From Lentisphaerota bacterium (GTDB lineage: Bacteria > Verrucomicrobiota > Kiritimatiellia > RFP12 > JAAYNR01), in contig VGWG01000005.1 in NCBI GenBank assembly GCA_016873675.1, positions 5,648 to 69,647 on the forward strand: 64,000 nucleotides of DNA. The letters run 5' to 3'. Below the pieces are notes generated by a model. The model did not search any database. It was given only the letters and a program-made list of their open reading frames with translations, and was not told the origin of the DNA. Both the position numbers and the translations under genes were made by a program. Positions 1 through 22,042 of the stretch are shown piece by piece (position 1 is the stretch's first letter; the number at the start of each line of letters is the position of its first letter).

Positions 1-504
1 CTCGCCCGTCTTCAGCGGATAGACATACGTGTAGAGGCCGCCATCGAACGCCAGGGTCTGCGAATACTCCAGCTCGATTTTCTGAAGGCCGTTGGCCGGA
101 ACCGGAAACACGCTGATGCGGAACAGGTTGCCGCCGATGTGCTCCAGCAGCCCCGGATCCTTCATGCGGCGCACGATGTCCTCATAAATCCCCCGCGCCT
201 TGCCTTTTTCCACAAGCTCGCCGCTCATCCGCTTGCCGTTGATCATCATGGCGAAGTCGGAGATGCTGGCGTTCGCGGGAAGCGGGAAGATGAAGACGGC
301 CTCCAAGTCGCGGCCGACGCTGTTGCGGAAGACCTGTTCGATCTTGGCCGTGGCGACGCCGTCCTTGATGCGGATATCGACGCGCTGGCTCTCAATGGCC
401 AGCGGCGGGATGGACGCGTCCTTGGGGATCAGCATGCCCGCAGCAAAGCTGCGCGCGGCGCCGAGCGTTCCCAAACAAGCAAGCATCAGCAGCGTGCGTT
501 TCAT
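1..504 (-). CDS. VIT-domain protein, N-terminal part (probably VIT+vWA); the gene runs off the window start
   Basis: The reverse strand from 504 translates to MKRTLLMLACLGTLGAARSFAAGMLIPKDASIPPLAIESQRVDIRIKDGVATAKIEQVFRN...GELVEKGKARGIYEDIV...VFPVPANGLQKIELEYSQTL. This is a signal peptide followed by the classic vault/inter-alpha-trypsin (VIT) fold pattern. RBS GGAGGA lies 6 nt upstream of the ATG (revcomp of 511-516). It is absent from the ORF track because it has no in-window stop. Confidence 0.7.
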   Translation of the reverse strand, partial: MKRTLLMLACLGTLGAARSFAAGMLIPKDASIPPLAIESQRVDIRIKDGVATAKIEQVFRNSVGRDLEAVFIFPLPANASISDFAMMINGKRMSGELVEKGKARGIYEDIVRRMKDPGLLEHIGGNLFRISVFPVPANGLQKIELEYSQTLAFDGGLYTYVYPLKTGE

Positions 505-681
505 GATATGTCCTCCCGTATTCTGACTCCTGACTCCTGACTTGCAAACGTCCCTGAGGGGTTTTGTAAGAGAGCCTGCAGTTGTTAAGACGTTTGTGGC
601 CGCTCTTTTGTTCCCGCGTTACACGAAATTTTTCTTAATAGGCTTGACGTGCAGGCACCGTATGCCTATCATGCATGCATC

Positions 682-939
682 ATGAAAACAAAGTCCCTTC
701 AGTACACGATTCGCAATGTTCCGGATCGCACCGACCGGCGTCTTCGAGAAGCTGCGGTTGAGTACGGCACCAGCCTCAACAGCGTCACTCTGCAGGCCCT
801 CAACCAGGGCCTGGGCCTGTCTGACAAGTCCGTTATGCACCACGATCTGGATGATTTGATCGGGAGTTGGGTGCCGGACAGCGAATGCGACAAGGCGCTT
901 GAAGAAATGGACCGTACCGATCCGGAGTTGTGGAAATGA
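682..939 (+). CDS. vapB: Ribbon-helix-helix antitoxin (VapB/FitA-like)
   Basis: An 85-aa protein MKTKSLQYTIRNVPDRTDRRLREAAVEYGTSLNSVTLQAL, an RHH N-terminus. Its stop overlaps the start of the downstream PIN gene (ATGA). The ORF-track start at 649 is less likely. Confidence 0.6.
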   Translation: MKTKSLQYTIRNVPDRTDRRLREAAVEYGTSLNSVTLQALNQGLGLSDKSVMHHDLDDLIGSWVPDSECDKALEEMDRTDPELWK

Positions 940-1325
940 AAATCGCCATAGACACCAACCGCTACCGGGACTTCTGTGAAGGAAAGGACGATGCCGTCGA
1001 ACAGTTGAGAGCCGCGTCCCGGATTTACCTTCCGTTCACGGTACTGGCTGAACTGCGGGCCGGATTCGAGTGTGGGACCCTGGCGCGCCGCAACGAAAGT
1101 GCCCTGTCTCGCTTCCTCAATAGTCATCGCGTTTCCATTCTCTTTCCCGACGAACAGACCACATTCCACTATGCCCGGATCTTTCACCAACTTCGGGTCC
1201 AGGGCACACCCATCCCCACCAATGACATCTGGATTGCGGCACTCGTCCAACAGCACAATCTCATCCTCTACTCTCGTGATCGACATTTTGACGTCCTGCA
1301 CCAGCTTGGGAGAGTGCCGTCGTGA
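930..1325 (+). CDS. vapC: PIN-domain toxin VapC
   Basis: MEMKIAIDTNRYRDFCEG...TNDIWIAALVQQHNLILYSRDRHF. The PIN-domain acidic residues (D8, E42, D-like positions) fit, and it is paired with the upstream antitoxin. Confidence 0.75.
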   Translation: MEMKIAIDTNRYRDFCEGKDDAVEQLRAASRIYLPFTVLAELRAGFECGTLARRNESALSRFLNSHRVSILFPDEQTTFHYARIFHQLRVQGTPIPTNDIWIAALVQQHNLILYSRDRHFDVLHQLGRVPS

Positions 1326-1360
1326 TCCTGACGAGCCTCCCTTAGAAACGGGCGCGGGGT

Positions 1361-2485
1361 TCAACGGAGGTCTATCTCCCGATAGTCCCCCGCCGCAAAA
1401 ACGGCCGCATGCACCAGGCCGCCCTTCCACGTCAGCACCTGCCCGTCCATCCGGCCCCGGATGGCGAACGATTCGCCGGCACCGGGCGTGTGCTGCCGCG
1501 ACAGCCCGGTCCGGGAGAGCTCATCCAGAAAGCGCTTGACCGTAGCGGCGTGGTTATCATACACCATTTCCCGGTCTTTGCGCCAATGCTCTTCCTGCGG
1601 ATAGTCGGCCACGTGGGAGCGCATGATCTTATCCCACAGCGCCGCACACAGATCCGCGTCTCCGAACAGATCGGCGCTCACGACGCGGCCCGAGGCGACG
1701 GTGACCAGCCCGACCGTGCGGCGGGTGCGGATGTGGCGGAACCGTTCCACCCGATCGGTAATGCGTCGACCCACATCGGGGTCGTTGTAGAGCGACTGGT
1801 AGCTGCGGGTCGGGGCGGACACGCCGGCCGCCTTGATCTGCTGGTCGATCTCGGTCCAGATCGCCGATTGAGAATTCTCGCGAACGGCCAGTCTGCGGAG
1901 GGTCTGTCCGGCCATCTCAGGCGCGCGATCAAAAGAATCCCGGGTCCCCTTCCACCGATCTTGCTCGCCGCAGTAGACCGGCACCGCGATCGCGCCCAGG
2001 CCGGGCGTCAGCAGGACGTCTTTTTGAAGGATGCGGTCCTGACGGCCGCCGCCGAGAATCTCTCCAGCCATCATGAAGACGGTCTGCCGGGATTCATTGC
2101 GAACGATCACCGCCGAGACGCGGGACTCCTCATACTCGCGAATGGTGATCCAGTTCTGGCTCAACGCCTCGTCCAGTGAACGGATCGCGGGCGGGCCCAT
2201 CGGATCGCCGATCTCCAGCGGGAACACGGTCAGCCGGCCGTAGGCTGCGGGACGACCGATCTCGACCTGACGCAGCATCCGGCGCAACGGGTTGTCGGTG
2301 TCGGGCGGCGGCAACGGCGGCCGCGGCATCGGCCTGTGTATGGGCGGCGCAATCTCGACATCCCGCGTCACTGGACTGCCGCTGTCATCTTCCAGATAGG
2401 CGCCGCAGACCGGAATCGACGACACCCGCATCCACACGGTCAGAAGCAGGGTGACTGTTGCGATCCAATGGATTTTCATGGGCAA
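1361..2485 (-). CDS. Secreted hypothetical protein (ARPP-1/DUF6569-like pattern)
   Basis: N-terminal signal peptide, a Pro-rich linker, then GRLTVFPLEIGDP...IREYEES...VIVRNESRQTVFMMAGEILGGGRQDRIL. I recall this pattern from ARPP-1-family secreted proteins. The family call rests on memory only. Confidence 0.35.
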   Translation of the reverse strand: MPMKIHWIATVTLLLTVWMRVSSIPVCGAYLEDDSGSPVTRDVEIAPPIHRPMPRPPLPPPDTDNPLRRMLRQVEIGRPAAYGRLTVFPLEIGDPMGPPAIRSLDEALSQNWITIREYEESRVSAVIVRNESRQTVFMMAGEILGGGRQDRILQKDVLLTPGLGAIAVPVYCGEQDRWKGTRDSFDRAPEMAGQTLRRLAVRENSQSAIWTEIDQQIKAAGVSAPTRSYQSLYNDPDVGRRITDRVERFRHIRTRRTVGLVTVASGRVVSADLFGDADLCAALWDKIMRSHVADYPQEEHWRKDREMVYDNHAATVKRFLDELSRTGLSRQHTPGAGESFAIRGRMDGQVLTWKGGLVHAAVFAAGDYREIDLR

Positions 2486-2626
2486 CCCTCCTAAGGCTTA
2501 CACCCCTTTAGACGTGGGCACGCCCGAAAAAGTTCCCATTCTGAAGCATGCACGGGGCCAACCGACGTCGAAGGCTTTTGCAGGCGCCTCACGCATTCCT
2601 AAAAAGCGCAGGCGCGAACTCGCTCG

Positions 2627-3568
2627 TCAGGCGGCTCCGGGTTCTCCCACTGACTGTGATCGAAGCGGCTGGGCGGGCAGCGGCCTGAGCACCCAGCGCT
2701 TGTTGTACCAGAACCATTGATCGGGGTTTTGGCGGATGGCAGCCTCGACATGCTCCATCACCGTCCGGGTCATGCGGAGGAGGTCGGCATCCCGATCAGC
2801 GGTTGGATCGGCCAAAACGGGGGAATAGGCAACCATGCGATGGCGAAACCAGCCGACACGGCTGAGGATCACGGGCAGCACGGGGACATGCGCGGTGCGC
2901 GCAAATTGGGCCATGCCGCGGCCCAGATTGGCCTGCGCGCCGAGAAACGGAACCAGAAGATCGGGCGTCGGCATCCGCACGTCGGGAAGGATGGCAAACA
3001 CCCCCCGGTGTTGCAGCCGGCGCAGGATGACGCGCAGGACCGATGACCCGCGCTCCAGCACGTCCATGCTGTAGCCACGAATGTGGTTGAGCCAACGGTT
3101 GACATGCGGATTCTTCTGTTTACCCGCGATCGAAAAGATATCAAATCCCGCCTGTTTGCCGGCGACCCCGGCCAAATCCCAGTTGCCCATGTGCGGGACG
3201 GCGATGACGAGTCCGCCGTGCGCCTCGATCAGCGCCTGCATGCGGATCAGGACCTCGTCCAGCCCCTCCACGTGGCGGCGCAGCCAGACGGGCGAGATCC
3301 GGGTCACCCGCATCATTTCCGCCGCATTGAAGAACAGGTTGCGCCACGAGCGCCAGGCGATCCACTCAGCCTGTCGGGGGGTCACCGCGCCGCCGAACAC
3401 GCTGACAATGCGCCGCACCGCCTCGGCCCGGCGGAAGCGGACGACATGGAATCCCACCCCGGCCACACCCCAAGCCAGCGCCAATGCGGCACCGTGAGGC
3501 AGCGCCCGGCATACGCCAGCGGTCGCGCGCAGGGCGAAATATTCGATCAGGTACCGGATGCGTCGCAT
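2627..3568 (-). CDS. Lipid A late acyltransferase / lysophospholipid acyltransferase (LpxL/HtrB family)
   Basis: MRRIRYLIEYFALRATAGV...RFRRAEAVRRI...HMGNWDL...ILPDVR...WFWYNKRW. HtrB/MsbB family motifs (the HxxxxD-like HMGNWD, C-terminal WYxKRW). The ORF-track start at 3772 is an upstream extension; I prefer the Met at 3568. Confidence 0.6.
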   Translation of the reverse strand: MRRIRYLIEYFALRATAGVCRALPHGAALALAWGVAGVGFHVVRFRRAEAVRRIVSVFGGAVTPRQAEWIAWRSWRNLFFNAAEMMRVTRISPVWLRRHVEGLDEVLIRMQALIEAHGGLVIAVPHMGNWDLAGVAGKQAGFDIFSIAGKQKNPHVNRWLNHIRGYSMDVLERGSSVLRVILRRLQHRGVFAILPDVRMPTPDLLVPFLGAQANLGRGMAQFARTAHVPVLPVILSRVGWFRHRMVAYSPVLADPTADRDADLLRMTRTVMEHVEAAIRQNPDQWFWYNKRWVLRPLPAQPLRSQSVGEPGAA

Positions 3569-12288: not shown

Positions 12289-12364
12289 GGCGGGTTAGCT
12301 CAGTTGGTAGAGCAACGGAATCATAATCCGTCTGTCGGGGGTTCAAGTCCCTCACCCGCCACCA
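12289..12364 (+). tRNA. tRNA-Met (anticodon CAT; could be tRNA-Ile2/lysidine type)
   Basis: GGCGGGTTAGCTCAGTTGGTAGAGCAACGGAATCATAATCCGTCTGTCGGGGGTTCAAGTCCCTCACCCGCCACCA. The 7-bp acceptor is GGCGGGT/ACCCGCC, the D-arm AGCTCAGTTGGTAGAGC, the anticodon stem ACGGA/TCCGT with loop ATCATAA, the T-arm GGGGGTTCAAGTCCCTC, and CCA is encoded. It is followed by a hairpin AAAACCCCGGCGTTGCTGGGGGTTTTT. Confidence 0.85.
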
Positions 12365-12640
12365 GCCAAAAAGCCCCACAAAACCCCGGCGTTGCTGGGG
12401 GTTTTTCATTTTACGCCCCGGTTTGCGGGCAAGCCCCGGTTGAGTGGCGTTCGTTCTTGTCCGATTCGTTTCTGACGTGGTATCCTTTCCGGTCTATGAC
12501 CGTGTCAGCATTCATTTCCAAGTGGCGTAAGGTGGAATTGAAGGAGCGCTCCGCCGTTTACGGCTGGTCCGCCGACCTCACCGACGATGCAATCCTCGAA
12601 CGGCTTATGCGTTGAATTCGGGGAATGCAAAAGGATGCCC

Positions 12641-14098
12641 ATGTTTGAACAAGCCTTCAAAAACATCGACGACGTCCTCTGGAAAGACGCTGGCTGCACC
12701 AGCGAACTCGATTACACCGAGCAGACCTCCTGGTTGCTCTTCCTGAAGTACCTCGACGCCCTGGAGACCGATCGCGCCACGGCGGCCGCCCTGAACGGCA
12801 AGACCTATACCCACATCCTCGACGCCCCCTTTCGCTGGGCCACGTGGGCCGCCCCCAAGGGCAAGGACGGCAGGATCGACCACAACACCGCCCTCTCCAG
12901 CGACGACCTCATCGCCTTCGTCAACGGCAAGCTCTTTCCCTACCTGCACGGCTTCAAGGCCAAGGCCACCGGCCCGAACACCATCGAATACAAGATCGGC
13001 GAAATCTTCGGCGAGATCAAGAACCGCATCCAGAGCGGCTACAACCTGCGCGAGATCATTGATCACATCGACGAACTCCGCTTCCAGTCCCAGACCGAGA
13101 AGCACGAGCTCTCGCACCTCTACGAAGCCAAGATCAAAAACATGGGCAACGCCGGGCGCAACGGCGGCGAGTATTACACCCCGCGCCCGCTCATCCGCGC
13201 CATCGTCGCCGTCACCGCGCCCCGGCTCGGTGAGACCCTCTGCGACCCCGCCGTCGGCTCGGCCGGCTTCCTCTGCGAATCCTTCGAGTACCTCCGTGTC
13301 CAGAACCCCCAGCGCACCACCGCCCAGGACCGCACCCTGCAAGAGCGCACCTTTTACGGGAAGGAAAAGAAGTCCCTCGCCTACGTCATCGCGATCATGA
13401 ACATGATCCTGCACGGCATCGAGGCGCCCAACATCATCCACACCAACACGCTCGCCGAGAACCTCGCCGACGTGCAGGAAAAGGACCGCTTCGACATCAT
13501 CCTCGCCAATCCGCCCTTCGGCGGCAAGGAGCGCAAGGAGGTGCAGCAGAACTTCCCCATCCGCACCGGCGAGACCGCCTTCCTCTTCCTCCAGCACTTC
13601 ATCAAATTCCTCAAGGCCGGCGGCCGCGCCGGCGTCGTCATCAAGAACACCTTCCTCTCCAACACCGACAACGCCTCCGTCAGCCTGCGCCGGAAGCTGC
13701 TGGAGGAGTGCGACCTCCACACCGTGCTCGACTGCCCCGGCGGCACGTTCATCGGCGCCGGCGTCAAGACCGTGGTCCTCTTCTTCCAGAAGGGCGCCAA
13801 GACGCGCAAGGTCTGGTTCTACCAGCTCGACCCCGGCCGCAACATGGGCAAGACCAACCCGCTCAACGACGCCGACCTCGCCGAGTTCGTCGCGCTCCAG
13901 AAGACCAAGGCCGACTCGCCCAAGAGCTGGAGCGTGGACGCGGCGGCCATCGATCCGCAGACCTTTGACCTCTCCGTCAAGAACCCCAACGCTGGCGAGG
14001 CGGTCGCCCACCGCACCCCGCAGGAGATCATGGACGAAATCGCCGCGCTGGATGCCGAGAGCGCCGAGGTGCTGGCCAACATCCGAGGGCTGCTATGA
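12641..14098 (+). CDS. hsdM: Type I restriction-modification N6-adenine DNA methyltransferase subunit
   Basis: MFEQAFKNIDDVLWKDAGCTSELDYTEQTSWLLFLKYLD is the HsdM N-domain. Motif I is DPAVGSAGFL and motif IV is NPPFGG. Alternative in-frame starts are 12635 and 12587. The stop overlaps the next gene. Confidence 0.9.
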   Translation: MFEQAFKNIDDVLWKDAGCTSELDYTEQTSWLLFLKYLDALETDRATAAALNGKTYTHILDAPFRWATWAAPKGKDGRIDHNTALSSDDLIAFVNGKLFPYLHGFKAKATGPNTIEYKIGEIFGEIKNRIQSGYNLREIIDHIDELRFQSQTEKHELSHLYEAKIKNMGNAGRNGGEYYTPRPLIRAIVAVTAPRLGETLCDPAVGSAGFLCESFEYLRVQNPQRTTAQDRTLQERTFYGKEKKSLAYVIAIMNMILHGIEAPNIIHTNTLAENLADVQEKDRFDIILANPPFGGKERKEVQQNFPIRTGETAFLFLQHFIKFLKAGGRAGVVIKNTFLSNTDNASVSLRRKLLEECDLHTVLDCPGGTFIGAGVKTVVLFFQKGAKTRKVWFYQLDPGRNMGKTNPLNDADLAEFVALQKTKADSPKSWSVDAAAIDPQTFDLSVKNPNAGEAVAHRTPQEIMDEIAALDAESAEVLANIRGLL

Positions 14099-15162
14099 GC
14101 GAACTGCCGGCCAGGGACTACGGCGACTTTCTGGTTGCAGTCAAGACCCGCATCCGGCAGGCGCAATACCAAGCGTTGCGGGCGACGAACAAGGAGCTTC
14201 TGACGCTCTACTGGGACCTGGGCGAGTCCATCCACCGCAAGCAGGATGCGCTGGGATGGGGCCGATCCGTGGTTGAGACGCTTGCCAGCGACCTCCAGGC
14301 TGAGTTCCCGGGGCGGAACGGTTTCTCAGCCCGCAACCTCTGGAACATGAGGGACTTCTACACCGAATATTCCGCCAGGCCAAAACTGCAACCGCTGGTT
14401 GCAGAAATCAGTTGGGCTAAAAACCTGGTCATCATGGCCCGTTGCAAGGATGACTTGGAGAGGGAGTTCTACCTCCGCGCCACCGCGCGCTTCGGCTGGA
14501 CCAAGGCCGTGCTCCAGCACCAGATCGACAACAAGAGCTACGAGAAATACCTGCTCAACCAGACCAACTTCGACGCGACCCTGCCCGCCGAGATCAAGGC
14601 GCAGGCGGCGCTGGCGGTCAAGGACCACTACACCTTCGATTTTCTCGACCTGGCCGAGGAGCACTCCGAGCGCGAACTGGAGCGGTCCCTGGTCAACAAC
14701 ATCCGCCGATTCCTCGCCGAAATGGGCGGTGCCTTCACCTTTGTCGGCAACCAGCACCGCCTGGAGGTGGGCGGACAGGAATACTTCATCGACCTCCTGC
14801 TGTTCCACCGCCGCCTCCGCTGCCTGGTGGCGATCGAGCTGAAGATCGGCAGTTTCGAGCCGGAGCACAAGGGCAAGATGGAGTTCTACCTGGAGGCGCT
14901 CGACGCGCAGGAGCGCATCGACGGCGAAAACCCGCCCGTCGGCATCATCATCTGCCGCGACAAAAACAAGACCGTGGTCGAATACGCCCTGCGCACCGCG
15001 GGCCGCCCCATCGGCGTCGCCACCTACACCGTCGTCCCCCAACTGCCCGCAACCTACCGCGACCAGCTCCCCAGTCCCGAAGCCATCGCCGAACGCCTCC
15101 GCCTGTGGGCCGCCGAGAGCGCCCGACAAGCCGCCGCTGACCAGGCGGAGGGGGCGGGATGA
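14095..15162 (+). CDS. PDDEXK-nuclease-fold protein YhcG/DUF1016, embedded in the type I R-M operon
   Basis: A 355-aa protein with ...YWDLG..I...W..NLVIMARCKD..EREFYL...GWTKAVLQHQI...FDFLDL...ELE..L...FLAEMGGAFTFVGNQHRLEVGGQEYFIDLLLFHRRLRCLVAIELKIG, the DUF1016 pattern. Its location between hsdM and hsdS is classic. Confidence 0.75.
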   Translation: MSELPARDYGDFLVAVKTRIRQAQYQALRATNKELLTLYWDLGESIHRKQDALGWGRSVVETLASDLQAEFPGRNGFSARNLWNMRDFYTEYSARPKLQPLVAEISWAKNLVIMARCKDDLEREFYLRATARFGWTKAVLQHQIDNKSYEKYLLNQTNFDATLPAEIKAQAALAVKDHYTFDFLDLAEEHSERELERSLVNNIRRFLAEMGGAFTFVGNQHRLEVGGQEYFIDLLLFHRRLRCLVAIELKIGSFEPEHKGKMEFYLEALDAQERIDGENPPVGIIICRDKNKTVVEYALRTAGRPIGVATYTVVPQLPATYRDQLPSPEAIAERLRLWAAESARQAAADQAEGAG

Positions 15163-16322
15163 AGAAGGGGTGGCAGACAAAGACGCTGGGGGACGTCTGC
15201 GCTTTCGACAAAGCGCAAGGCATCCACCGGGGTTTGCCTTACGTCGGGCTTGAACACATCGAGTCTCACACAGCGCGTTTTATCGGCTCAAGCGAGCCGC
15301 AGCCTGTCAAAAGCTCGACGTTTCGATTTTCCGACGAGCACGTTCTCTACGGGCGGCTTCGACCTTATCTGAACAAGGCACTCGCGCCGGATTTCGAGGG
15401 CCATTGCTCAACGGAAATCTTCCCACTGAAGCCGCGCCCTGAACTCTCGCGGGAATATCTGCTGTTTTGGCTGCTGGCTGATGAGACGTGTGACCGCATC
15501 AACGAGACTTGCACGGGCGCACGAATGCCACGCGCTCAGATGAACGACGTGCTCGGCTTTGAGATTCCCGTCCCCCCCCTCCCCGAACAGCGGCGGATCG
15601 TCGGCCTGCTCGACGAAGCGTTTGCGGGCCTCGCCACCGCCAAAGCCAACGCCGAAAAGAACCTCCAGAACGCCCGCGCCCTCTTCGAAAGCCACCTCCA
15701 ATCCGTCTTCGCTGACCAATGGCATGTTGGTAAGTTGGTTACACTCTCGGAGTTGGCCACTGACATCACGGACGGCGACCATCTGCCACCGCCGAAGTCT
15801 CCAACCGGTGTACCATTCATCACCATAGGAAACATCGTGAAGGAGACCCGCGAGATTGATTTTAGCGACACCTTCATGGTGCCTCGCGCTTACTTTGACG
15901 CTCTTAAAACCTACAAGAAGCCTCGGCGGGGAGACGTTCTTTATACCGTCACCGGTTCATTCGGAATCCCCGTCATTGTCCGTGATGACGCCGAATTTTG
16001 CTTCCAGCGGCACATTGGCCTTGTTCGTCCGAAGCCCGAGATAAGCAGTTCCTGGCTCTACTATCTCCTCATGTCTCCACAGTTGCTCAAACAGGCAAAT
16101 GAAGGTGCCACGGGCACGGCACAAAAGACTGTTTCATTAAAACTCCTCCGCAGTTTCATGGTGCCCAAGGTTGCGCCGAACCAACAGAGGCAAGCTGTGG
16201 GAAAACTTGACGCCCTCAATGCCGAAACCCGCCACCTCGCCGCCATCTACTCCCGCAAGCTCGCGGTGCTGGAGGCGTTGAAGAAGTCGCTGCTGCACCA
16301 AGCCTTCACCGGAGAACTCTGA
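15159..16322 (+). CDS. hsdS: Type I R-M specificity subunit (two target-recognition domains)
   Basis: The conserved central repeat is LPPLPEQRRIVGLLDEAFAGL and the C-terminal repeat is LRSFMVPKVAPNQQRQAVGKLDAL...LKKSLLHQAFTGEL, separated by two variable TRDs. It is translationally coupled on both sides. Confidence 0.85.
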   Translation: MKKGWQTKTLGDVCAFDKAQGIHRGLPYVGLEHIESHTARFIGSSEPQPVKSSTFRFSDEHVLYGRLRPYLNKALAPDFEGHCSTEIFPLKPRPELSREYLLFWLLADETCDRINETCTGARMPRAQMNDVLGFEIPVPPLPEQRRIVGLLDEAFAGLATAKANAEKNLQNARALFESHLQSVFADQWHVGKLVTLSELATDITDGDHLPPPKSPTGVPFITIGNIVKETREIDFSDTFMVPRAYFDALKTYKKPRRGDVLYTVTGSFGIPVIVRDDAEFCFQRHIGLVRPKPEISSSWLYYLLMSPQLLKQANEGATGTAQKTVSLKLLRSFMVPKVAPNQQRQAVGKLDALNAETRHLAAIYSRKLAVLEALKKSLLHQAFTGEL

Positions 16323-16324
16323 CC

Positions 16325-16999
16325 ATGCCCAATGCCCCAATCACAGAACGCACTTCCAATCCTGCCGAAATCACCACGGTCGGCATCGATGTGGGCGGCG
16401 AACGCAAGGGTTTTCACGCCATCGCGATTACCAACGGAGATTATTCGAGCCACCTTGCCACAAAGGACGTGCAGGAACTTTCCTGCTGGTGTCGTGATAC
16501 GGTGCGAGCACAAGTCATCGCTGTGGATGCACCGTGCGGCTGGAGCATCGACGGACATTCACGCCCCGCCGAGCGCGAGCTAATGCAAAAGAGCATCTGG
16601 TGTTTCTCAACGCCGACGCGAGAGAAGGCAGTCGGGCATCCCACCAATTACTTCGGCTGGATGCTGCGGGGCGAGGCGTTGTTTCGTGCGCTCGAAAATG
16701 ACTTCCCCCTTTGTCGCAAACTGCCCGCAACAAACCGGAAGTGCTGCTTCGAGACTTTCCCGCACGCCATCACCTGGCATCTGCGGGGTGGCAATGCCGA
16801 TGCTCGGCGTAAGCGTGAACAACGCCGGGCCTTGCTGACGCAGGCGAGAATCGACATCACCGGGTTGACAAACATCGACCTCGTTGATGCCGCGCTCTGC
16901 GCCCTCACGGCTAACCGCGCCGCCACGGGCGGTGCGTGCGTGAGTTTCGGTGAGCAGAACACCGGATTGATCATCGTACCCACCCAACCCAACCTATGA
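16325..16999 (+). CDS. DUF429-like predicted RNase-H-fold nuclease, embedded in the R-M operon
   Basis: A 224-aa protein with VGIDVGGERKGFHAIAI...VIAVDAPCGW...DLVDAALCALTA. Size and motif spacing match DUF429 as I recall it. It starts 3 nt after the hsdS stop. Confidence 0.5.
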   Translation: MPNAPITERTSNPAEITTVGIDVGGERKGFHAIAITNGDYSSHLATKDVQELSCWCRDTVRAQVIAVDAPCGWSIDGHSRPAERELMQKSIWCFSTPTREKAVGHPTNYFGWMLRGEALFRALENDFPLCRKLPATNRKCCFETFPHAITWHLRGGNADARRKREQRRALLTQARIDITGLTNIDLVDAALCALTANRAATGGACVSFGEQNTGLIIVPTQPNL

Positions 17000-17106
17000 A
17001 CACCACCGAACCCCAGCGCCTCACCGCCATCTGCACCCGAAAGCGCGCCACGCTGGGGCAGTTGAAGAAGTCGGTGCTGCACCAAGCCTTCACCGGAGAA
17101 CTTTAG
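16996..17106 (+). pseudogene. Orphan 3' fragment of a second hsdS allele (36 codons)
   Basis: It encodes MNTTEPQRLTAICTRKRATLGQLKKSVLHQAFTGEL. The hsdS C-terminus at 16250-16322 reads ...LAAIYSRKLAVLEALKKSLLHQAFTGEL. The final ~43 nt are near-identical (gaagaagtcgGtgctgcaccaagccttcaccggagaactTtag versus ...tcgCtg...actCtga). Confidence 0.65.
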
Positions 17107-17116
17107 GAGACGCCCC

Positions 17117-18157
17117 ATGAGCAGGGAAAAGAAACTCCAGATTCGTAACAGCACCGCCGAGTTCCTGATCTTCACCCGGCAGGCGGGCGAGGACGGCATC
17201 GAGGTGCGCGTCGAAGACGAGACCGTCTGGCTGACGCAGAAGCTGATGGCGGCGCTGTTCGAGGTGACCGTTCCGACCATCAGCGAGCATCTGGCCAACC
17301 TATATGCCCAAGGTGAAATCTCCGAACCGGCAACTCTTCGGAATTTCCGAACAGTTCAAAAGGAGGGTGCCCGCGATGTCGCCCGGAATATGGATTTCTA
17401 CAACCTCGACGCCATCATCGCCGTAGGCTTCCGGGTGAACTCCGTCCGCGCCATCCAGTTCCGGCAATGGGCCACAGGCGTCTTGCGGGATTTCGCGATC
17501 CGCGGCTACGTGCTGGACAAGGAGCGGCTGAAGAACGGGGCGTTCCTGAGCAAGGAGTATTACGAAAACCTGCTGGCGGAGATTCGCGAGATCCGGGCGA
17601 GCGAGCGGAAGTTCTACCAAAAGATCACCGACATCTACGCCACGGCGATGGATTACAGCCCGGAGGCGGAGACGACCCAGACATTTTTCGCCACAGTGCA
17701 GAACAAGCTGCATTTCGCCATCCATGGCCGTACCGCCGCCGAACTGATTGTGGAACGGGCGGACAGCAAAAAGGAGCGCATGGGCCTGACGACCTGGAAG
17801 AACGCGCCGCACGGGAAGATCCTCAAGCCGGACGTCGTGGTGGCAAAGAACTACCTCACCGAAAAGGAACTGAAGTCACTGGATCGGATCGTGACGATGT
17901 ATCTGGATTACGCGGAAGATCAAGCCGAGCGCGGCATCCCAATGACCATGCGGGACTGGGCGACCAAGCTGAACGCGTTCCTCCAGTTCAACGAACGGGA
18001 CATTCTCGATCATCCGGGGAAGGTGAGCCAGGCGGTGGCCAAGGCCTTTGCCGAAAGCGAGTTCGAGAAGTACCGGATCGTACAGGATCGCCTGTTTGAG
18101 TCGGACTTCGACCGGCATATCAGGAAGGCTTTGGAAGGCGGCAAGGAAGAATCATGA
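17117..18157 (+). CDS. rhuM: RhuM-family protein (R-M/island-associated DNA-binding protein)
   Basis: ETVWLTQKLMAALFEV, FYNLDAIIAVGFRVNS, RASERKFYQKITDIYATAMDYS and IVTMYLDYAEDQAERG closely follow the RhuM consensus. RBS AGGAGA is present. Confidence 0.8.
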   Translation: MSREKKLQIRNSTAEFLIFTRQAGEDGIEVRVEDETVWLTQKLMAALFEVTVPTISEHLANLYAQGEISEPATLRNFRTVQKEGARDVARNMDFYNLDAIIAVGFRVNSVRAIQFRQWATGVLRDFAIRGYVLDKERLKNGAFLSKEYYENLLAEIREIRASERKFYQKITDIYATAMDYSPEAETTQTFFATVQNKLHFAIHGRTAAELIVERADSKKERMGLTTWKNAPHGKILKPDVVVAKNYLTEKELKSLDRIVTMYLDYAEDQAERGIPMTMRDWATKLNAFLQFNERDILDHPGKVSQAVAKAFAESEFEKYRIVQDRLFESDFDRHIRKALEGGKEES

Positions 18158-20646
18158 ACGAAGCCGAAACCAGAGCCGAGCACATCGACCCCGCACTTGC
18201 CGCGGCGGGTTGGGGCGTCGTTGAGGGGAGCCGCATCCGGCGCGAGTACCCGATCGCGCCGGGCCGCATCGAGGGGCTCGGCCGGCGCGGCAAGCCGCTC
18301 ATCGCCGACTACATCCTGGAGTACCGCAACCGCAAGCTGGCCGTGGACGAGGCCAAGGCATGGGATGTTGAGTTGACCGAGGGGGTGGCGCAGGCCAAGA
18401 ACTACGCCGGCAAGCTCGCCGTCCGTTTCGCCTACGCCACCAACGGCCGTGGCATCTACGCCGTGGACATGCAGACCGGCAGGGAAGGCGAGATCGCCCG
18501 CTATCCGACCCCCGACGAACTCTGGGCCATGACCTTCGCCGGGGAGAACGCTTGGCGGGACCGGTTCACGGCCGTGCCGTTCGAGGACAAGGGCGGCTCG
18601 CACCCGACCCGGTACTATCAGGACACCGCCATCGAGCGGGTGATGGATGCCATCGCGGCGAACCAGCCGCGCATCCTGCTCACGCTCGCCACGGGCACGG
18701 GCAAGACCTTCATCGCCTTCCAGATCGCCTGGAAGCTCTTCCACTCCCGCTGGAACCTCTCCCGCGAGCCTTCCCGCCGGCCGCGCATCCTGTTCCTCGC
18801 CGACCGGAACATCCTGGCGAACCAGGCCTACAACGCCTTCTCCGCCTTCCCCGAGGATGCGCTGGTGCGGATCGAGCCGGACGACATCCGCAGGAAGGGC
18901 AAGGCGCCGAAGAACGGCAGCCTGTTCTTCACCATCTTCCAGACCTTCATGACCTCCGGCGCCCAGGCGTCCGATGAAGTCAATACGGTCAACGCGGTCA
19001 AACCCGCCGTCGCCCCGCCGCCGATCTATCCGCTGGCGGAGGACGAGGTCGCCCCCTTGGACATGGCGGCGGAACCGCCCGCGCTCTTCGGCGAATACCC
19101 GCCGGACTTCTTCGACTTCATCGTCATTGACGAGTGCTACCGCGGCGGCGCGAACGACGAGAGCGCCTGGCGCGGCATCCTCGAATACTTCGCCCCGGCG
19201 GTGCAGATGGGGATGACCGCCACGCCCAAACGCGAGGAGAACGTGGACACCTACCGCTACTTCGGCGACCCGGTCTACATCTACTCCCTCAAGGACGGCA
19301 TCAACGACGGCTTCCTGACGCCATTCAAGGTGAGGCAAATCCAGACCACGCTTGACGAGTACGTCTACACGCCCGATGATTGCGTTTTGGAAGGAAGCAT
19401 CGAAGAGGGCAAGCTTTACGACGAGGAAGACTTCAATCGCATCATCGAGATCAAGGAACGGGAGAAGAAGCGGGTTGAAATCTTCATGGCGCTGATTGAC
19501 CAAAAGGAAAAGACCCTCGTCTTTTGTGCGAGTCAAATTCACGCGTTGGCCGTCCGCGACCTGATCAACCAGATGAAGACCAGCGCCGACCCGAACTACT
19601 GCCAGCGGGTGACGGCGAACGACGGCGCGCTCGGCGAGCAGCACCTGCGCGACTTCCAGGACAACGAGAAGACGATCCCGACGGTCTTGACCACGTCGCA
19701 GAAGCTTTCGACCGGCGTGGACGCCCGCAACGTCCGCAACATCGTCCTGATGCGGCCCATCAGGCGGATCATCGAGTTCAAGCAGATCATCGGGCGCGGC
19801 ACGCGGCTTTACGACGGCAAGGACTACTTCACGATCTACGACTTTGTGAAGGCGTGCCAGCATTTCAGCGATCCCGAGTGGGACGGCGAGCCGCTCGAAC
19901 CGGAGCCCTGCCCGAAGTGCGGCTGCCAGCCGTGCGCGTGCGTAAAGCCGCCGCCGCAAGCGTGCCCCGTCTGCGGCCAGGCGCCCTGCGTCTGCCCGCC
20001 GGGTCCCTGCCCGAGATGCGGCCAGCGGCCATGCGTATGCAAAAAGCGGGAAAGGGTGAAGGTAAAACTGGCGGACGGCAAGGAGCGCACCATCCAGCAC
20101 ATGATGATGACCAGCTTCTGGCACCCCGACGGCACGCCCATGTCCGCGCAGCAGTTCATGGAACTGCTCTTCGGCAAGCTCCCGGACTTCTTCAAAGACG
20201 AAGCCGAACTCCGCGCCATCTGGAGCGCTCCCGACACGCGCAAGAAGCTCTTGCAAGGGCTGGCCGAGAAAGGTTTTGGCCACGACCAACTATCCGAAAT
20301 GCAGAAGATCATCGACGCCGAAAAGAGCGACCTGTTCGATGTGCTGGCCCATGTGGCCTACGCCTTGCCGCCGGTCACCCGCGAAGTGCGGGCCGCGAAC
20401 GCCAAAGTCCACATCAACGCCCAGTTCAATGCCAAGCAGCAACTCTTCCTTGATTTTGTGCTCCAGCACTACATCACGGTCGGCGTGGAAGAACTGGACC
20501 AGGAAAAACTCACGCCGCTGCTCCTCCTCAAATACCACAACTCCCTCGCGGATGCCGTCGCTGACCTCGGCGGCCGGCCCGAAGAAATCAACAAAACCTT
20601 CGCCGGTTTCCAGAAGTATCTTTATCAACAAACGGCTGCGGCGTGA
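18154..20646 (+). CDS. hsdR: Type I restriction endonuclease R subunit (EcoEI-like C-terminal domain) with a Cys-rich insertion
   Basis: N-terminal HSDR_N (ETRAEHIDPALAAAGW...IADYILEY), helicase motifs (LATGTGKT, DEC, MTATP, TGVD, QIIGRGTR) and a C-terminal EcoEI_R_C-like region. Between them sits 3x CPxCGQxPCxC (CPKCGCQPCACV / CPVCGQAPCVCP / CPRCGQRPCVCK), encoded by a ~45-nt tandem repeat at 19905-20040. The start overlaps the rhuM stop. Confidence 0.85.
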   Translation: MNEAETRAEHIDPALAAAGWGVVEGSRIRREYPIAPGRIEGLGRRGKPLIADYILEYRNRKLAVDEAKAWDVELTEGVAQAKNYAGKLAVRFAYATNGRGIYAVDMQTGREGEIARYPTPDELWAMTFAGENAWRDRFTAVPFEDKGGSHPTRYYQDTAIERVMDAIAANQPRILLTLATGTGKTFIAFQIAWKLFHSRWNLSREPSRRPRILFLADRNILANQAYNAFSAFPEDALVRIEPDDIRRKGKAPKNGSLFFTIFQTFMTSGAQASDEVNTVNAVKPAVAPPPIYPLAEDEVAPLDMAAEPPALFGEYPPDFFDFIVIDECYRGGANDESAWRGILEYFAPAVQMGMTATPKREENVDTYRYFGDPVYIYSLKDGINDGFLTPFKVRQIQTTLDEYVYTPDDCVLEGSIEEGKLYDEEDFNRIIEIKEREKKRVEIFMALIDQKEKTLVFCASQIHALAVRDLINQMKTSADPNYCQRVTANDGALGEQHLRDFQDNEKTIPTVLTTSQKLSTGVDARNVRNIVLMRPIRRIIEFKQIIGRGTRLYDGKDYFTIYDFVKACQHFSDPEWDGEPLEPEPCPKCGCQPCACVKPPPQACPVCGQAPCVCPPGPCPRCGQRPCVCKKRERVKVKLADGKERTIQHMMMTSFWHPDGTPMSAQQFMELLFGKLPDFFKDEAELRAIWSAPDTRKKLLQGLAEKGFGHDQLSEMQKIIDAEKSDLFDVLAHVAYALPPVTREVRAANAKVHINAQFNAKQQLFLDFVLQHYITVGVEELDQEKLTPLLLLKYHNSLADAVADLGGRPEEINKTFAGFQKYLYQQTAAA

Positions 20647-20711
20647 CGAATCGGGTCGCCCGCCGCGAGCCCCCCTTTCCCCTTTTCAGCTTTCCTCTTT
20701 CGGCCAGACAA

Positions 20712-20893
20712 GGGACGGGCCTGAATGGCGTGAATGGCGCTAAGTTAAGGGGCTATTGCCATCTTAATCGTAATCGTAATCTTGATCTTAATATTAATCT
20801 TAATCTCTTGGTGGAGAACGGATTACGATTATGATTATGATTATGATTATGATCGGAAGCATCGCTTTACTTAGCGCCATTCGGGACGGGCCT
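20712..20893. mobile_element. MITE-like non-coding element: 10-bp direct repeats flanking 14-bp terminal inverted repeats and an AT-rich palindromic core
   Basis: Direct repeat GGGACGGGCC at 20712-20721 and 20884-20893. Inverted repeat GAATGGCGCTAAGT (20731-20744) versus CTTAGCGCCATTC (20870-20882). The core is (TAATC/GATTA)-type pentamer runs arranged as an imperfect palindrome around a 15-nt centre, locally AT-rich in a 65% GC genome. It lies 70 bp after the hsdR stop. Confidence 0.5.
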
Positions 20894-20989
20894 TGCATCT
20901 CTCCGGGTGCCTGCAGAACCGACGAAGGAAATGTTGCAATCGCCTCGTAGGGTAACACCCCATCGCCAAAAAAAAGCACGCCGTGCATC

Positions 20990-22042
20990 ATGACGCCCAT
21001 GACCATAGACATCGACAAGCGATCCACGGTGCTCATGCTGTTGACACTGCTCCTTCCCGCACTGACACGTGGCGCGGGCTCGGACATCTCGGCAGGCACC
21101 TTCGGCGTGTACATGGAGAACGACATGTATGCCGGCACGGACCACTACTACACCAGTGGTTCCAAGCTCACGTGGAGTTCTCCCAATCTCGAAACGCTCA
21201 GCGACTCCCCGTATGCCAGCCCGTTCCTGCCGATGTTTGATCGGTTGCCCTACATCAACGCAAGCGACTATCAAAAGAACCTCGTTTTCGCACTTGGGCA
21301 GAACATCTACACGCCCGACGACACCGAGTCGTCTGGGCTGCTCGGCGATGATCGCCCCTACGCGGGCTGGCTTTACATGGGGCTCGGCATCGTGTGGAAA
21401 GATGCGCGGGTGAGAAACTCGCTCGTGCTGAGTATCGGCGTCGTCGGCCCATGGGCCTACGCGCATGAAACCCAGCGCCTGATCCATGATGCGCTTGATC
21501 AAGATCATCCGAATGGATGGGAGAATCAACTACACAATGAACTCGGTGTGAACCTCGCGTACGAACGGATTTGGCGTCTTCCCAAGCTCACGAAACGCAG
21601 CGGGCTTGACTGGGAGCTCCTGCCCCATGGAGGCGCGGTGGTAGGAAACGTCTATACCTATGTCAACCTCGGCGCCGAACTGCGCGCTGGCTTGAATCTG
21701 CCCGATGATTTCGGAACCGGAGTGATCGGTCCGGTGGCCACCACCTCGACGCCCGTCGATGGCATGATGGGCGCAGATCGTTCCCGCTTTGATCTGGGGA
21801 TGTATGTCTTCGCCCGAGCCGATGGCCGCGCGGTGGGACGCAACATTTTGCTGGATGGAAACACCTTTGGGAGTGGCCCATCCGTGGGGCATAATCCCTT
21901 CGTCGCTGATCTCAGCCTCGGCGTGGCCCTGAACATTAAGAATACCAAGATCGCCTACGCCTCTGTCTATCGGACCCGTGAGTTCGACAGCCAGCAGGAC
22001 GCCCAAATCTTCAACATGGTCTCACTCAACTGGACCTTCTAA
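20990..22042 (+). CDS. lpxR: LpxR-family outer-membrane lipid A 3'-O-deacylase (DUF2219)
   Basis: Signal peptide, then GVYMENDMYAGTDHYYTSG (LpxR starts ENDxxxxxDxxYTxG), an OMP beta-barrel with C-terminal ...SLNWTF. Confidence 0.6.
   Translation: MTPMTIDIDKRSTVLMLLTLLLPALTRGAGSDISAGTFGVYMENDMYAGTDHYYTSGSKLTWSSPNLETLSDSPYASPFLPMFDRLPYINASDYQKNLVFALGQNIYTPDDTESSGLLGDDRPYAGWLYMGLGIVWKDARVRNSLVLSIGVVGPWAYAHETQRLIHDALDQDHPNGWENQLHNELGVNLAYERIWRLPKLTKRSGLDWELLPHGGAVVGNVYTYVNLGAELRAGLNLPDDFGTGVIGPVATTSTPVDGMMGADRSRFDLGMYVFARADGRAVGRNILLDGNTFGSGPSVGHNPFVADLSLGVALNIKNTKIAYASVYRTREFDSQQDAQIFNMVSLNWTF

What the first reader, a model, noticed from the sequence alone, without database searches (positions are those of the whole stretch)
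20712..20893. MITE-like element downstream of hsdR: 10-bp direct repeats, 14-bp terminal inverted repeats and an AT-rich pentamer palindrome
GGGACGGGCC occurs at both ends (like a target-site duplication). Just inside are GAATGGCGCTAAGT / CTTAGCGCCATTC terminal inverted repeats. The ~125-bp interior is made of TAATC/GATTA-type pentamer runs forming an imperfect hairpin, which is strikingly AT-rich for this genome. No coding capacity exists; the poly-Ile ORF 20800..21138 is an artefact. It could be a non-autonomous transposable element, a recombination site marking the edge of the R-M cassette, or a structured regulatory or terminator element.
Basis: seen in the sequence. Interest (0 to 1): 0.6.

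Follow-up and report, generated by a model that had tools for sequence, protein, structure and literature searches.

The report
IS4-family MITE with hexamer-repeat hairpin
The odd AT-rich hairpin between hsdR and lpxR is a 160-bp non-coding "hitch-hiker" transposon (a MITE) moved by IS4-type transposases and common in Verrucomicrobia-like bacteria; it is a new member of a well-known kind of element, not a new mechanism.

Summary
The element spans window 20723-20882 (160 bp). Its flanking direct repeat is 11 bp (GGGACGGGCCT), not 10. The conserved terminal inverted repeat is 18 bp (GAATGGCGCTAAGTTAAG), not 14. The interior is built of hexamers, not pentamers.

Among these were 145 MITE-sized elements with at least 47 unrelated cores. 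Of 154 unique elements, 106 carry an 11-12-bp flanking repeat with at most one mismatch, in 79 different sequences. Insertion prefers the near-palindrome GGGWCNGNCCY.

Full-length insertion sequences of about 1.5-1.9 kb have the identical 18-bp ends and perfect 11-bp duplications. They encode IS4-family DDE/YREK transposases (NCBIfam NF033592). The ends fit the published IS4-subgroup signature and match E. coli IS4 at 15 of 20 positions.

The hexamer subfamily has at least 32 close copies, mainly in PVC-group bacteria, and they differ only by whole hexamers. The window copy carries a 9-nt duplication in its left end and one substitution in its right end, so it may no longer move.

I found no support for an R-M boundary site, a conserved RNA family or a small ORF. 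Novelty: new member of a known kind.

The parts
20712..20722 (.). Left copy of the 11-bp target-site duplication, GGGACGGGCCT.
   Evidence: Exact direct repeat of 20883-20893 (D3). It abuts the element tip, as in other copies. It fits the family target consensus GGGWCNGNCCY.
20723..20749 (+). Left terminal inverted repeat, interrupted by a 9-nt tandem duplication: tip GAATGGCG (20723-20730), duplicated TGAATGGCG (20731-20739), then CTAAGTTAAG (20740-20749). The uninterrupted 18-nt copy GAATGGCGCTAAGTTAAG is 20732-20749.
   Evidence: Tandem Repeats Finder reports period 9, 2.4 copies, at 20718-20739. In the alignment with 11 other copies, only the window has the 9 extra bases. The 18-nt consensus comes from 381 unique ends.
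20750..20760 (+). Spacer next to the left terminal repeat on the 'A' side (GGGCTATTGCC).
   Evidence: Conserved among hexamer-subfamily copies.
20761..20806 (+). Left hexamer array, (N)TAATC-type units, 7.7 copies.
   Evidence: The unit number varies between copies only in whole hexamers.
20807..20820 (+). Central loop (CTTGGTGGAGAACG).
   Evidence: Apical, largely unpaired part of the predicted fold. Conserved among copies.
20821..20853 (+). Right hexamer array, GATTAY units, 5.5 copies, complementary to the left array.
   Evidence: (I1-I4). Folds.
20854..20864 (+). Spacer next to the right terminal repeat on the 'B' side (CGGAAGCATCG).
   Evidence: Conserved among copies.
20865..20882 (-). 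Right terminal inverted repeat, CTTTACTTAGCGCCATTC. It has one substitution (T at 20868; consensus A).
20883..20893 (.). Right copy of the 11-bp target-site duplication, GGGACGGGCCT.
   Evidence: D3.
18154..20646 (+). Upstream neighbour (context, not part of the element): type I restriction subunit HsdR. Its stop codon lies 76 nt before the element.
   Evidence: Pfam EcoEI_R_C, ResIII, SWI2_SNF2.
20990..22042 (+). Downstream neighbour (context, not part of the element): lipid A deacylase LpxR. Its start lies 107 nt after the element.
   Evidence: Pfam LpxR, E 3.9e-95.

Best explanation
[quoted passage not shown] It is a 160-bp, non-coding, non-autonomous DNA transposon mobilised in trans by transposases of the IS4 subgroup of the IS4 family.

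**Shown here**
- The element ends in the 18-bp inverted repeat GAATGGCGCTAAG(T/A)TAAG.
- Complete insertion sequences of about 1.5-1.9 kb carry the same ends and encode IS4-type DDE/YREK transposases.
- Both the MITEs and these insertion sequences are flanked by 11-bp target-site duplications.
- Insertion favours the near-palindromic target GGGWCNGNCCY. In the host lineage of the hexamer subfamily this target often lies in a recurring motif, ...CGCAAGGGACGGGCCTTCC....
- Between the ends lies a core with no sequence similarity to the transposase gene. It consists of two mutually complementary arrays of AT-rich hexamers that gain and lose whole units, like a microsatellite.

**Inferred, not shown**
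- The transposase binds the 18-bp ends, excises the element, makes cuts staggered by 11 bp in the target, and repair of the gaps creates the duplication. This follows from the behaviour of studied IS4-family members (Tn5, Tn10); it rests on general knowledge and was not tested here.
- This particular copy inserted between hsdR and lpxR. It has since acquired a 9-nt duplication in its left end and a point change in its right end, which may have immobilised it.
- No function for the host is demonstrated. The copy is most simply a selfish insertion in an intergenic spacer.
For: **Many copies**
2. A scan of species-representative genomes for the 18-mer returned 120 loci, also at the limit.

**Independent insertions**
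3. Of 154 unique end-pairs, 75 have an exact 11-bp flanking direct repeat and 106 have one of 11-12 bp with at most one mismatch. Shuffled left/right partners gave 36 of 3080.
4. The 106 duplications comprise 79 different sequences.
5. The target logo is G94 G94 G96 W90 C96 N G80 N C51 C60 T43, out of 106.

**Autonomous partners**
6. L153, L192, L245, L218 and L211 are 1521-1860 bp, carry the identical 18-bp ends and perfect 11-bp duplications, and hold single ORFs of 458-487 aa.
7. The L153 and L192 proteins score 208-229 bits on NCBIfam NF033592 'IS4 family transposase' (cut-off 115; E. coli InsG scores 300). They also match Pfam DDE_Tnp_1.
8. All five intact partner proteins share the invariant D, D and the Y-2-R-3-E-6-K motif with InsG.

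**Ends**
9. The tip matches E. coli IS4 (TAATGCCGATCAGTTAAGGA) at 15 of 20 positions in register.
10. It fits the published IS4-subgroup end signature -AATR--------WTW---- and the 10-13-bp repeat length (PMC2266710).

**Subfamily**
11. There are 32 close hexamer copies, of 127, 133, 139, 145, 151 or 163 bp. All lengths are 1 mod 6; the window copy is 151+9.
12. The non-repeat parts are nearly identical across metagenomes and MAGs.
13. No long ORF spans any copy.
14. Unoccupied look-alike targets exist in the same contigs.
15. Two copies lie on one contig in L021 and in L113.
Against: - No orthologous empty site was obtained for this exact locus. The closest LpxR relatives (96% and 80% identity) have different upstream genes, or no DNA was available.
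- No IS4-type transposase lies in the 64-kb window. The rest of the source genome is not available, so the copy number and the presence of a partner in this very genome are unknown.
- Both collection scans were truncated, so the counts are lower bounds and the taxon sample is arbitrary.
- Mobility is inferred from sequence signatures only.
- A strand asymmetry in the hexamer arrays is not explained by simple selfish-element behaviour.
Confidence: 0.93

Rival explanations
1. The hairpin is primarily a functional structured RNA, or a single-stranded DNA structure: a terminator, a 3'-UTR stabiliser or a small RNA. On this view it was exapted from, or merely resembles, a mobile element, and it acts on hsdR or lpxR expression.
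For: - The + strand RNA folds to -81.8 kcal/mol (z -7.0), against -61.3 for the - strand.
- The same 'A' strand is the more stable one in 30 of 32 copies, by 7.1 kcal/mol on average. This is because the variable hexamer position is pyrimidine-rich on that strand in both arms.
- The A strand tends to be co-oriented with the nearest ORF, about 17 to 4 by crude ORF calls.
- It lies between two co-directional genes.
Against: - No significant Rfam match; only sub-threshold miRNA look-alikes, best 27 bits against a 230-bit threshold.
- No terminator-like site and no T-run after the stem.
- Arm lengths vary independently (left 4-8 units, right 3-9), so the hairpin is often lopsided.
- The copies share descent, and slippage amplifies a few unit types, so 30 of 32 is not 30 independent events.
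- The target-site duplications and shared transposase ends explain the element's presence without any RNA role.
Confidence: 0.04
2. The element is a recombination or attachment site marking the edge of the type I R-M islet that sits next to tRNA-Met.
For: It lies just after the last gene of the R-M cassette. A tRNA-Met gene (12289-12364) lies just before the first.
Against: - No direct repeat joins the two edges of the cassette.
- The 11-bp repeats flank only the 160-bp element.
- No integrase or recombinase family matched any of the genes scanned across the cassette and its downstream neighbours.
- Among about 240 other loci carrying these termini, only one has even a distant methylase gene nearby.
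Confidence: 0.02
3. The interior encodes a small hydrophobic peptide (...ILIVIVILILILILISWWRTDYDYDYDYDYDRKHRFT), for example a type I toxin.
For: In the window copy the frame stays open through both arms. Gain or loss of hexamers preserves the frame.
Against: - There is no ATG or GTG and no ribosome-binding site in a usable position. The only start-like codon is a TTG deep in the array.
- Most copies have in-frame TAG or TAA from GATTAG or GATTAA units.
- Copies occur in both orientations relative to their neighbours.
Confidence: 0.01

Closest known systems
IS4 of Escherichia coli and the IS4 subgroup of the IS4 family (De Palmenaer, Siguier & Mahillon 2008, PMC2266710)
   Same: - The ends begin xAATG and have WTA at positions 14-16.
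- 15 of 20 tip positions are identical to IS4.
- Target duplication is 11 bp, against 12 bp at the K-12 copy and 10-13 bp for the subgroup.
- The partner elements encode a single-ORF DDE transposase with the YREK motif, which hits the same NCBIfam model as InsG.
- That paper also notes marked target specificity for some members of the subgroup.
   Different: - The window element has no transposase and is 160 bp long.
- The partner transposases are only 26-28% identical to InsG. Unlike InsG, they gave no Pfam Nterm_IS4 hit at E<=0.001.
- Some partners (1860-1906 bp) exceed the 1400-1650 bp typical of the subgroup.
- The hosts are mostly Verrucomicrobiota, Kiritimatiellia and Lentisphaerota, plus some Gammaproteobacteria and Cyanobacteria.
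Bacterial MITEs in general, such as MITEAba12 (PMC6382973); review PMC10969869
   Same: It is short and non-coding, with terminal inverted repeats and target-site duplications. It sits in intergenic DNA, is multi-copy, is more AT-rich than its host, forms a stable hairpin, and shares its ends with an autonomous insertion sequence.
   Different: - The 18-bp end is shared by at least 47 unrelated cores across several phyla.
- The target is a strongly preferred 11-bp near-palindrome.
- I found no paper containing this end sequence, and 'IS4' does not occur in the main text of the 2024 MITE review.
BrickBuilt MITE of Porphyromonas gingivalis (PMC4596501)
   Same: It is a MITE whose interior is a tandem-repeat array of variable unit number, lying between short leader and tail segments that carry the inverted repeats.
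   Different: BrickBuilt has one array of 23-nt direct repeats. Here there are two opposed arrays of 6-nt units that pair with each other to form a hairpin, and the ends differ from BrickBuilt's.
REP/BIME elements mobilised by RAYT (IS200/IS605-like) transposases (from general knowledge)
   Same: They are short, intergenic, hairpin-forming, highly repeated sequences.
   Different: REPs have no target-site duplication and no long terminal inverted repeat shared with a DDE insertion sequence. Here 11-bp duplications and DDE partners are shown.

Membership tests
[quoted passage not shown] | Small size (tens to a few hundred bp) and no transposase gene. | tested here: met
   The element is 160 bp. 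It has no ORF with a usable start, other copies carry stop codons in the frame, and no long ORF spans any copy.
[quoted passage not shown] | Terminal inverted repeats. | tested here: met
   The 18-nt ends are GAATGGCGCTAAGTTAAG / CTTTACTTAGCGCCATTC, with 1 mismatch; the left end is interrupted by a 9-nt duplication.
[quoted passage not shown] | Target-site duplication of fixed length directly abutting the ends, with a different sequence at different loci. | tested here: met
   The window has the 11-bp repeat GGGACGGGCCT. Across the family, 106 of 154 elements have an 11-12-bp repeat with at most 1 mismatch, in 79 distinct sequences; the shuffled control gave 36 of 3080.
[quoted passage not shown] | Multiple dispersed copies. 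| tested here: met
   At least 32 close copies of the hexamer subfamily and 145 MITE-sized elements with the same ends were found in two truncated scans. L021 and L113 each hold two copies on one contig. The copy number in the window's own genome could not be measured.
[quoted passage not shown] | An autonomous element with matching ends and the same duplication length that can supply transposase. | tested here: met
   L153, L192, L245, L218 and L211 have identical 18-bp ends, perfect 11-bp duplications and intact transposases of 458-487 aa.
[quoted passage not shown] | Presence/absence polymorphism (an empty site) or observed transposition. | tested here: inconclusive
   No orthologous empty site could be retrieved for this locus. 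Only paralogous unoccupied targets were found. Transposition itself cannot be tested with these tools.
IS4 family, IS4 subgroup (as the mobilising family) | End signature -AATR--------WTW---- (PMC2266710, Table 1). | tested here: met
   In GAATGGCGCTAAG(T/A)TAAG, positions 2-5 are AATG and positions 14-16 are (T/A)TA.
IS4 family, IS4 subgroup (as the mobilising family) | Direct repeats of 10-13 bp (about one helical turn). | tested here: met
   The repeats are 11 bp, occasionally 12. A related Nostoc plasmid IS has 10 bp.
IS4 family, IS4 subgroup (as the mobilising family) | Single-ORF transposase with the DDE triad and the Y(2)R(3)E(6)K motif. | tested here: met
   The alignment with E. coli InsG shows invariant D, D and YxxRWxxELxxRxxK in all intact partner proteins. 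L153 and L192 score 208-229 bits on NF033592, above the 115-bit cut-off.
IS4 family, IS4 subgroup (as the mobilising family) | Typical element size of 1400-1650 bp. | tested here: inconclusive
   Partners of 1485, 1521, 1566 and 1573 bp fit. Partners of 1860, 1906 and 2063 bp are longer.
Rfam RNA families (any) | Score at or above a family's gathering threshold. | tested here: not met
   The best hit scored 27 bits against a gathering score of 230, and all hits were miRNA-hairpin look-alikes.
Intrinsic terminator | GC-rich stem followed by a T-run. | tested here: not met
   No terminator-like sites were found in 20500-21100. The stem is followed by TTGCATCTCTCC.

The most novel reading that the evidence does not exclude
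The hairpin core may not be mere filler. It may be selected as a single-stranded structure, either RNA in a neighbouring gene's untranslated region, or an extruded DNA hairpin or cruciform that brings the two transposase-binding ends together.

Observations that hint at this:
- The same strand is the better folder in 30 of 32 copies.
- The variable hexamer position is pyrimidine-rich on that strand in both arms.
- That strand is co-oriented with the nearest ORF about 17 to 4 (crude ORF calls), and with the target orientation 22 to 9.
- Ten of the eleven core types with three or more members are strongly self-complementary even with the terminal repeats removed.

On this reading, these IS4-type ends act as a general 'cap' that makes hairpin modules mobile.
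Probability: 0.12. Interest if true: 0.5.

Novelty: new member of a known kind. Interest (0 to 1): 0.3.

Why it matters
- **For annotation.** It explains an odd AT-rich hairpin as an ordinary mobile-element insertion, and it removes a spurious ORF call (20800-21138 on the - strand).
- **For mobile-element biology.** It documents a widespread set of MITEs tied to the IS4 subgroup. As far as my searches show, this set is undescribed. It occurs mainly in Verrucomicrobiota, Kiritimatiellia and Lentisphaerota, with some Gammaproteobacteria and Cyanobacteria, and it has an unusually sharp 11-bp palindromic target preference. The 18-bp end and the target motif are simple search keys for finding these elements and their insertion sequences in metagenomes.
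- **For assembly.** The elements cause contig breaks; the Logan contigs L003 and L004 end inside this copy.
- **Limits.** It does not reveal a new mechanism.

Tried and rejected
- **Rfam** at a permissive E-value over 20400-21200 gave only sub-threshold miRNA-like hairpin hits.
- **BLASTN of the element against plasmids** gave only low-complexity hexamer matches.
- **Viral contigs** scanned for the end-pair pattern gave 0 hits.
- **A full-length IS in the metagenome loci**, sought with relaxed end matches and a duplication check, was not found. Full-length partners came only from the genome scan.
- **An orthologous empty site** was sought through LpxR homologues. The 96% relative had no DNA available and a different upstream gene layout. 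The 79-80% relatives have a different neighbour, DUF6600.
- **Empty-site queries against all fetched loci** returned only paralogous target look-alikes and self-matches ([timed out], 50, 51).
- **Small-ORF or toxin idea:** rejected.
- **R-M boundary idea:** rejected.
- **Promoter or terminator role:** one weak promoter-like match (9 of 12) inside the element, about what shuffles give, and no terminator.
- **IS4-like transposase in the window:** none found.
- **Host identity** could be narrowed only to probable Verrucomicrobiota or the PVC group. The LpxR protein is 71% identical to a Prosthecobacter entry. Hexamer copies occur in Kiritimatiellia MAGs and in MAGs labelled 'Akkermansia'.

Full report
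**1. What is in the sequence**

Between the stop of hsdR (20646) and the start of lpxR (20990) lies a stretch with these features.
- The 11-mer GGGACGGGCCT occurs at 20712-20722 and again at 20883-20893.
- Inside these repeats, GAATGGCGCTAAGT (20732-20745) and its exact reverse complement (20869-20882) are the only matches in 64 kb, even with two mismatches allowed.
- The interior consists of two arrays with a period of 6, not 5: ATCTTA x7.7 at 20761-20806 and GATTAT x5.5 at 20821-20853. They pair with each other (I1-I4).
- GC drops to 31% against about 55-65% around it.
- The 201-nt region folds far better than shuffles on both strands: -81.8 kcal/mol (z -7.0) on the + strand and -61.3 (z -6.4) on the - strand.
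- The sequence is identical in three independent JGI assemblies of Lake Tanganyika samples. Two Logan contigs break inside it.

**2. It is one of a very large family**

I scanned public metagenome contigs for the two 11-nt end cores (ATGGCGCTAAG ... The same pattern gave 0 matches in 100 shuffles of the window and none in the viral contigs.

The matches share GAATGGCGCTAAG(T/A)TAAG at both ends. Their interiors differ completely, and so do their flanks. Clustering 145 MITE-sized elements by interior gave 47 groups, the largest being the hexamer type with 39 members.

Most were MAGs of Verrucomicrobiota (Chthoniobacterales, Opitutales, 'Spartobacteria'), Kiritimatiellia and Lentisphaerota/Victivallales. 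There were also Gammaproteobacteria and a few Cyanobacteria and others.

**3. The flanking repeat is a true target-site duplication**

- Of 154 unique end-pairs, 75 are flanked by an exact 11-bp direct repeat. A further 31 have a repeat of 11-12 bp with one mismatch, giving 106.
- Pairing left flanks with random right flanks gave an 11-bp match in only 36 of 3080 trials. Those matches reflect recurrent targets.
- The 106 duplications comprise 79 different sequences.
- Their logo is GGG-W-C-N-G-N-C-C-Y. Read without orienting, it is the palindrome GGGnCnGnCCC.
- In the hexamer subfamily, GGGACGGGCCT is the commonest target and sits in a recurring host motif...CGCAAGGGACGGGCCTTCC.... Copies of this motif without an insertion occur in the same contigs.
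- Re-insertion next to an existing copy is seen in L153 (IS, 11 bp, IS) and in L038, L090 and L111. This fits a target that each insertion regenerates.

**4. The autonomous partners are IS4-subgroup insertion sequences**

In the genome loci, several elements of 1.5-1.9 kb carry the identical 18-bp ends and perfect 11-bp duplications:

| Locus | Length (bp) | Duplication |
|---|---|---|
| L153 | 1566 | GGGCCTGGCCC |
| L192 | 1860 | GGGTCAGTCAA |
| L245 | 1573 | GGGTCAGATCT |
| L218 | 1573 | GGGTCAGGCTT |
| L211 | 1521 | GGGCCTGACCG |
| L161 (frameshifted) | 1485 | CGGCCAGACCC |

L245 and L218 come from the same MAG, carry identical ends and near-identical transposases, and sit at different targets.

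- The L153 and L192 transposases (459 and 485 aa) match Pfam DDE_Tnp_1. They score 208-229 bits on NCBIfam NF033592 'IS4 family transposase', whose cut-off is 115; E. coli IS4 InsG scores 300 on the same model.
- Aligned with InsG, all five intact partner proteins (458-487 aa) show the invariant D, D and the Y-2-R-3-E-6-K motif.
- The E. coli K-12 IS4 ends read from the RefSeq record are TAATGCCGATCAGTTAAGGA... with a 12-bp duplication. The MITE tip matches them at 15 of 20 positions in register.
- De Palmenaer et al. 2008 define the IS4 subgroup by ends -AATR--------WTW----, a YREK motif and 10-13-bp repeats (PMC2266710). All three are met here.
- An annotated 'IS4 family transposase' on a Nostoc plasmid, 46% identical to the L192 protein, has ends GAATGGCACTAAGAAAAG and a 10-bp duplication. 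The clade therefore reaches cultured organisms.
- A more distant IS4-family element lies 220 bp from a hexamer MITE in L030. Its ends are CAATGCCACTAAC... and its 11-bp duplication is GGCGGGACGCC.

**5. Anatomy of the hexamer subfamily and of this copy**

- Thirty-two close copies have lengths of 127, 133, 139, 145, 151 or 163 bp, all 1 mod 6. The window copy is 160 bp, that is 151+9.
- Outside the arrays the copies are nearly identical, including the loop (CTCCTGGTGGAGAAYG) and the spacers next to the terminal repeats.
- Left and right arrays vary independently (4-8 and 3-9 units), as expected for slippage in two microsatellites and not for a tightly constrained helix.
- The window copy alone has a 9-nt tandem duplication, TGAATGGCG, in its left end, and T for A at 20868 in its right end. 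Both changes fall in the presumed transposase-binding site. I infer that the copy may be crippled; this was not tested.
- No IS4-type transposase is encoded in the window.

**6. Alternatives**

- *Structured RNA or terminator.* Rfam gives nothing near a threshold. No terminator-like site is found and no T-run follows the stem.
- *Small peptide.* The frame is open here, but it lacks a start and is closed by TAG or TAA in most copies.
- *R-M islet boundary.* A tRNA-Met gene (12289-12364) precedes the cassette. However, no repeat links the two edges, and other copies are not next to R-M genes.
- *Chance.* Excluded by sections 2-4.

One observation remains unexplained. The variable hexamer position is pyrimidine-rich on the same strand in both arms. 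As a result, that strand folds better in 30 of 32 copies. That strand also tends to match the orientation of the nearest ORF and of the target. Shared descent and slippage could produce this pattern, so I treat it only as a lead.

**7. Mechanism**

- *Shown:* the ends, the duplication length, the target preference, the partner transposases, and dispersal.
- *Inferred from what is known of IS4-family enzymes such as Tn5 and Tn10 (general knowledge):* transposase supplied in trans binds the 18-bp ends, excises the element, and integrates it with cuts staggered by 11 bp. Gap repair then creates the duplication.

**8. Comparison with what is known, and novelty**

This is a MITE in the ordinary sense, and its mobilising family is the known IS4 subgroup. 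What is new is limited:
- No paper in the searchable library contains the end sequence, and 'IS4' does not occur in the main text of a 2024 MITE review.
- One 18-bp end caps at least 47 unrelated cores, often hairpins.
- The core here is a pair of opposed hexamer microsatellites. The nearest precedent is the BrickBuilt MITE with its internal minisatellite (PMC4596501).

I rate it a new member of a known kind, of modest interest.

**9. Limits**

- Both large scans were truncated.
- The source genome beyond the 69-kb contig was not available.
- No orthologous empty site was recovered.
- The ORF-orientation analysis used crude stop-to-stop ORFs.

Noticed in passing
window 12289-12364 (tRNA-Met) and 12587-20646: A tRNA-Met (CAT) gene sits directly upstream of the type I R-M cassette. 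The cassette also carries extra genes: DUF1016/YhcG nuclease, DUF429 and RhuM. It looks like a small tRNA-linked defence islet, but no repeat of the tRNA 3' end was found at the far edge.
   Followed up: partly
window 16222-16318 and 17006-17102: A 97-nt direct repeat (84% identical): the 3' end of hsdS is repeated just after the DUF429 gene. This suggests the DUF429 gene was inserted with a duplication, or that a remnant of a second hsdS is present.
   Followed up: no
window 19900-19948 and 19999-20047: A 49-nt imperfect direct repeat (73%) inside hsdR, rich in TGC/TGT codons.
   Followed up: no
L040, L094, L160, L075, L069 and others: Nine of the 48 elements that lack a direct 11-bp duplication have flanks that are reverse complements of each other. 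Possible causes are inversion or recombination between copies inserted in the same recurrent target, or, for L069 (19 of 20 flank bases inverted), a fold-back assembly artefact.
   Followed up: partly
L153 ~180-3222; L038 ~1929-1945; L090 ~1680-1700; L111 ~725-743: Two IS copies in L153 are separated only by the 11-bp target. Fragments of the terminal repeat abut complete MITEs in the other three loci. The pattern suggests repeated insertion into the regenerated target, or abortive events at element tips. The window's 9-nt tip duplication may be of the same kind.
   Followed up: partly
L030 1219-3070: A different IS4-family element (ends CAATGCCACTAACTTTTTG, 11-bp duplication GGCGGGACGCC, 471-aa transposase) lies 220 bp from a hexamer MITE. 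The MITE copy L113 has the same 11-mer as its duplication.
   Followed up: partly
L003 and L004 (Logan contigs), ends at window 20802 and 20821: Two independent short-read assemblies break in the loop or at the start of the right hexamer arm. This shows that these MITEs fragment assemblies.
   Followed up: no
L036, L050, L091 (same sample series Ga0194125 as the window): A second MITE subfamily with the same ends occurs in the same metagenome. Its core is made of opposed arrays of a 12-mer (CTTTGTCGCGAG), again with a variable unit number.
   Followed up: partly
L252 8541-13044: Downstream of an LpxR homologue (79% identity) lie an HRDC-domain gene, a reverse transcriptase (RVT_1) and a large LRR/Roc-COR protein. 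This may be a retron-like or other defence locus.
   Followed up: no
IS ends in L192, L166, L152, L173, L146, L214, L210, L197 (positions ~24-38 from the tip): Many full-length ISs of this clade share a second conserved block near the tip, TTTGGGAYGATTTT. The MITEs lack it, so only the 18-bp tip seems to be needed for mobilisation, and the MITE cores do not look like simple deletion derivatives.
   Followed up: no
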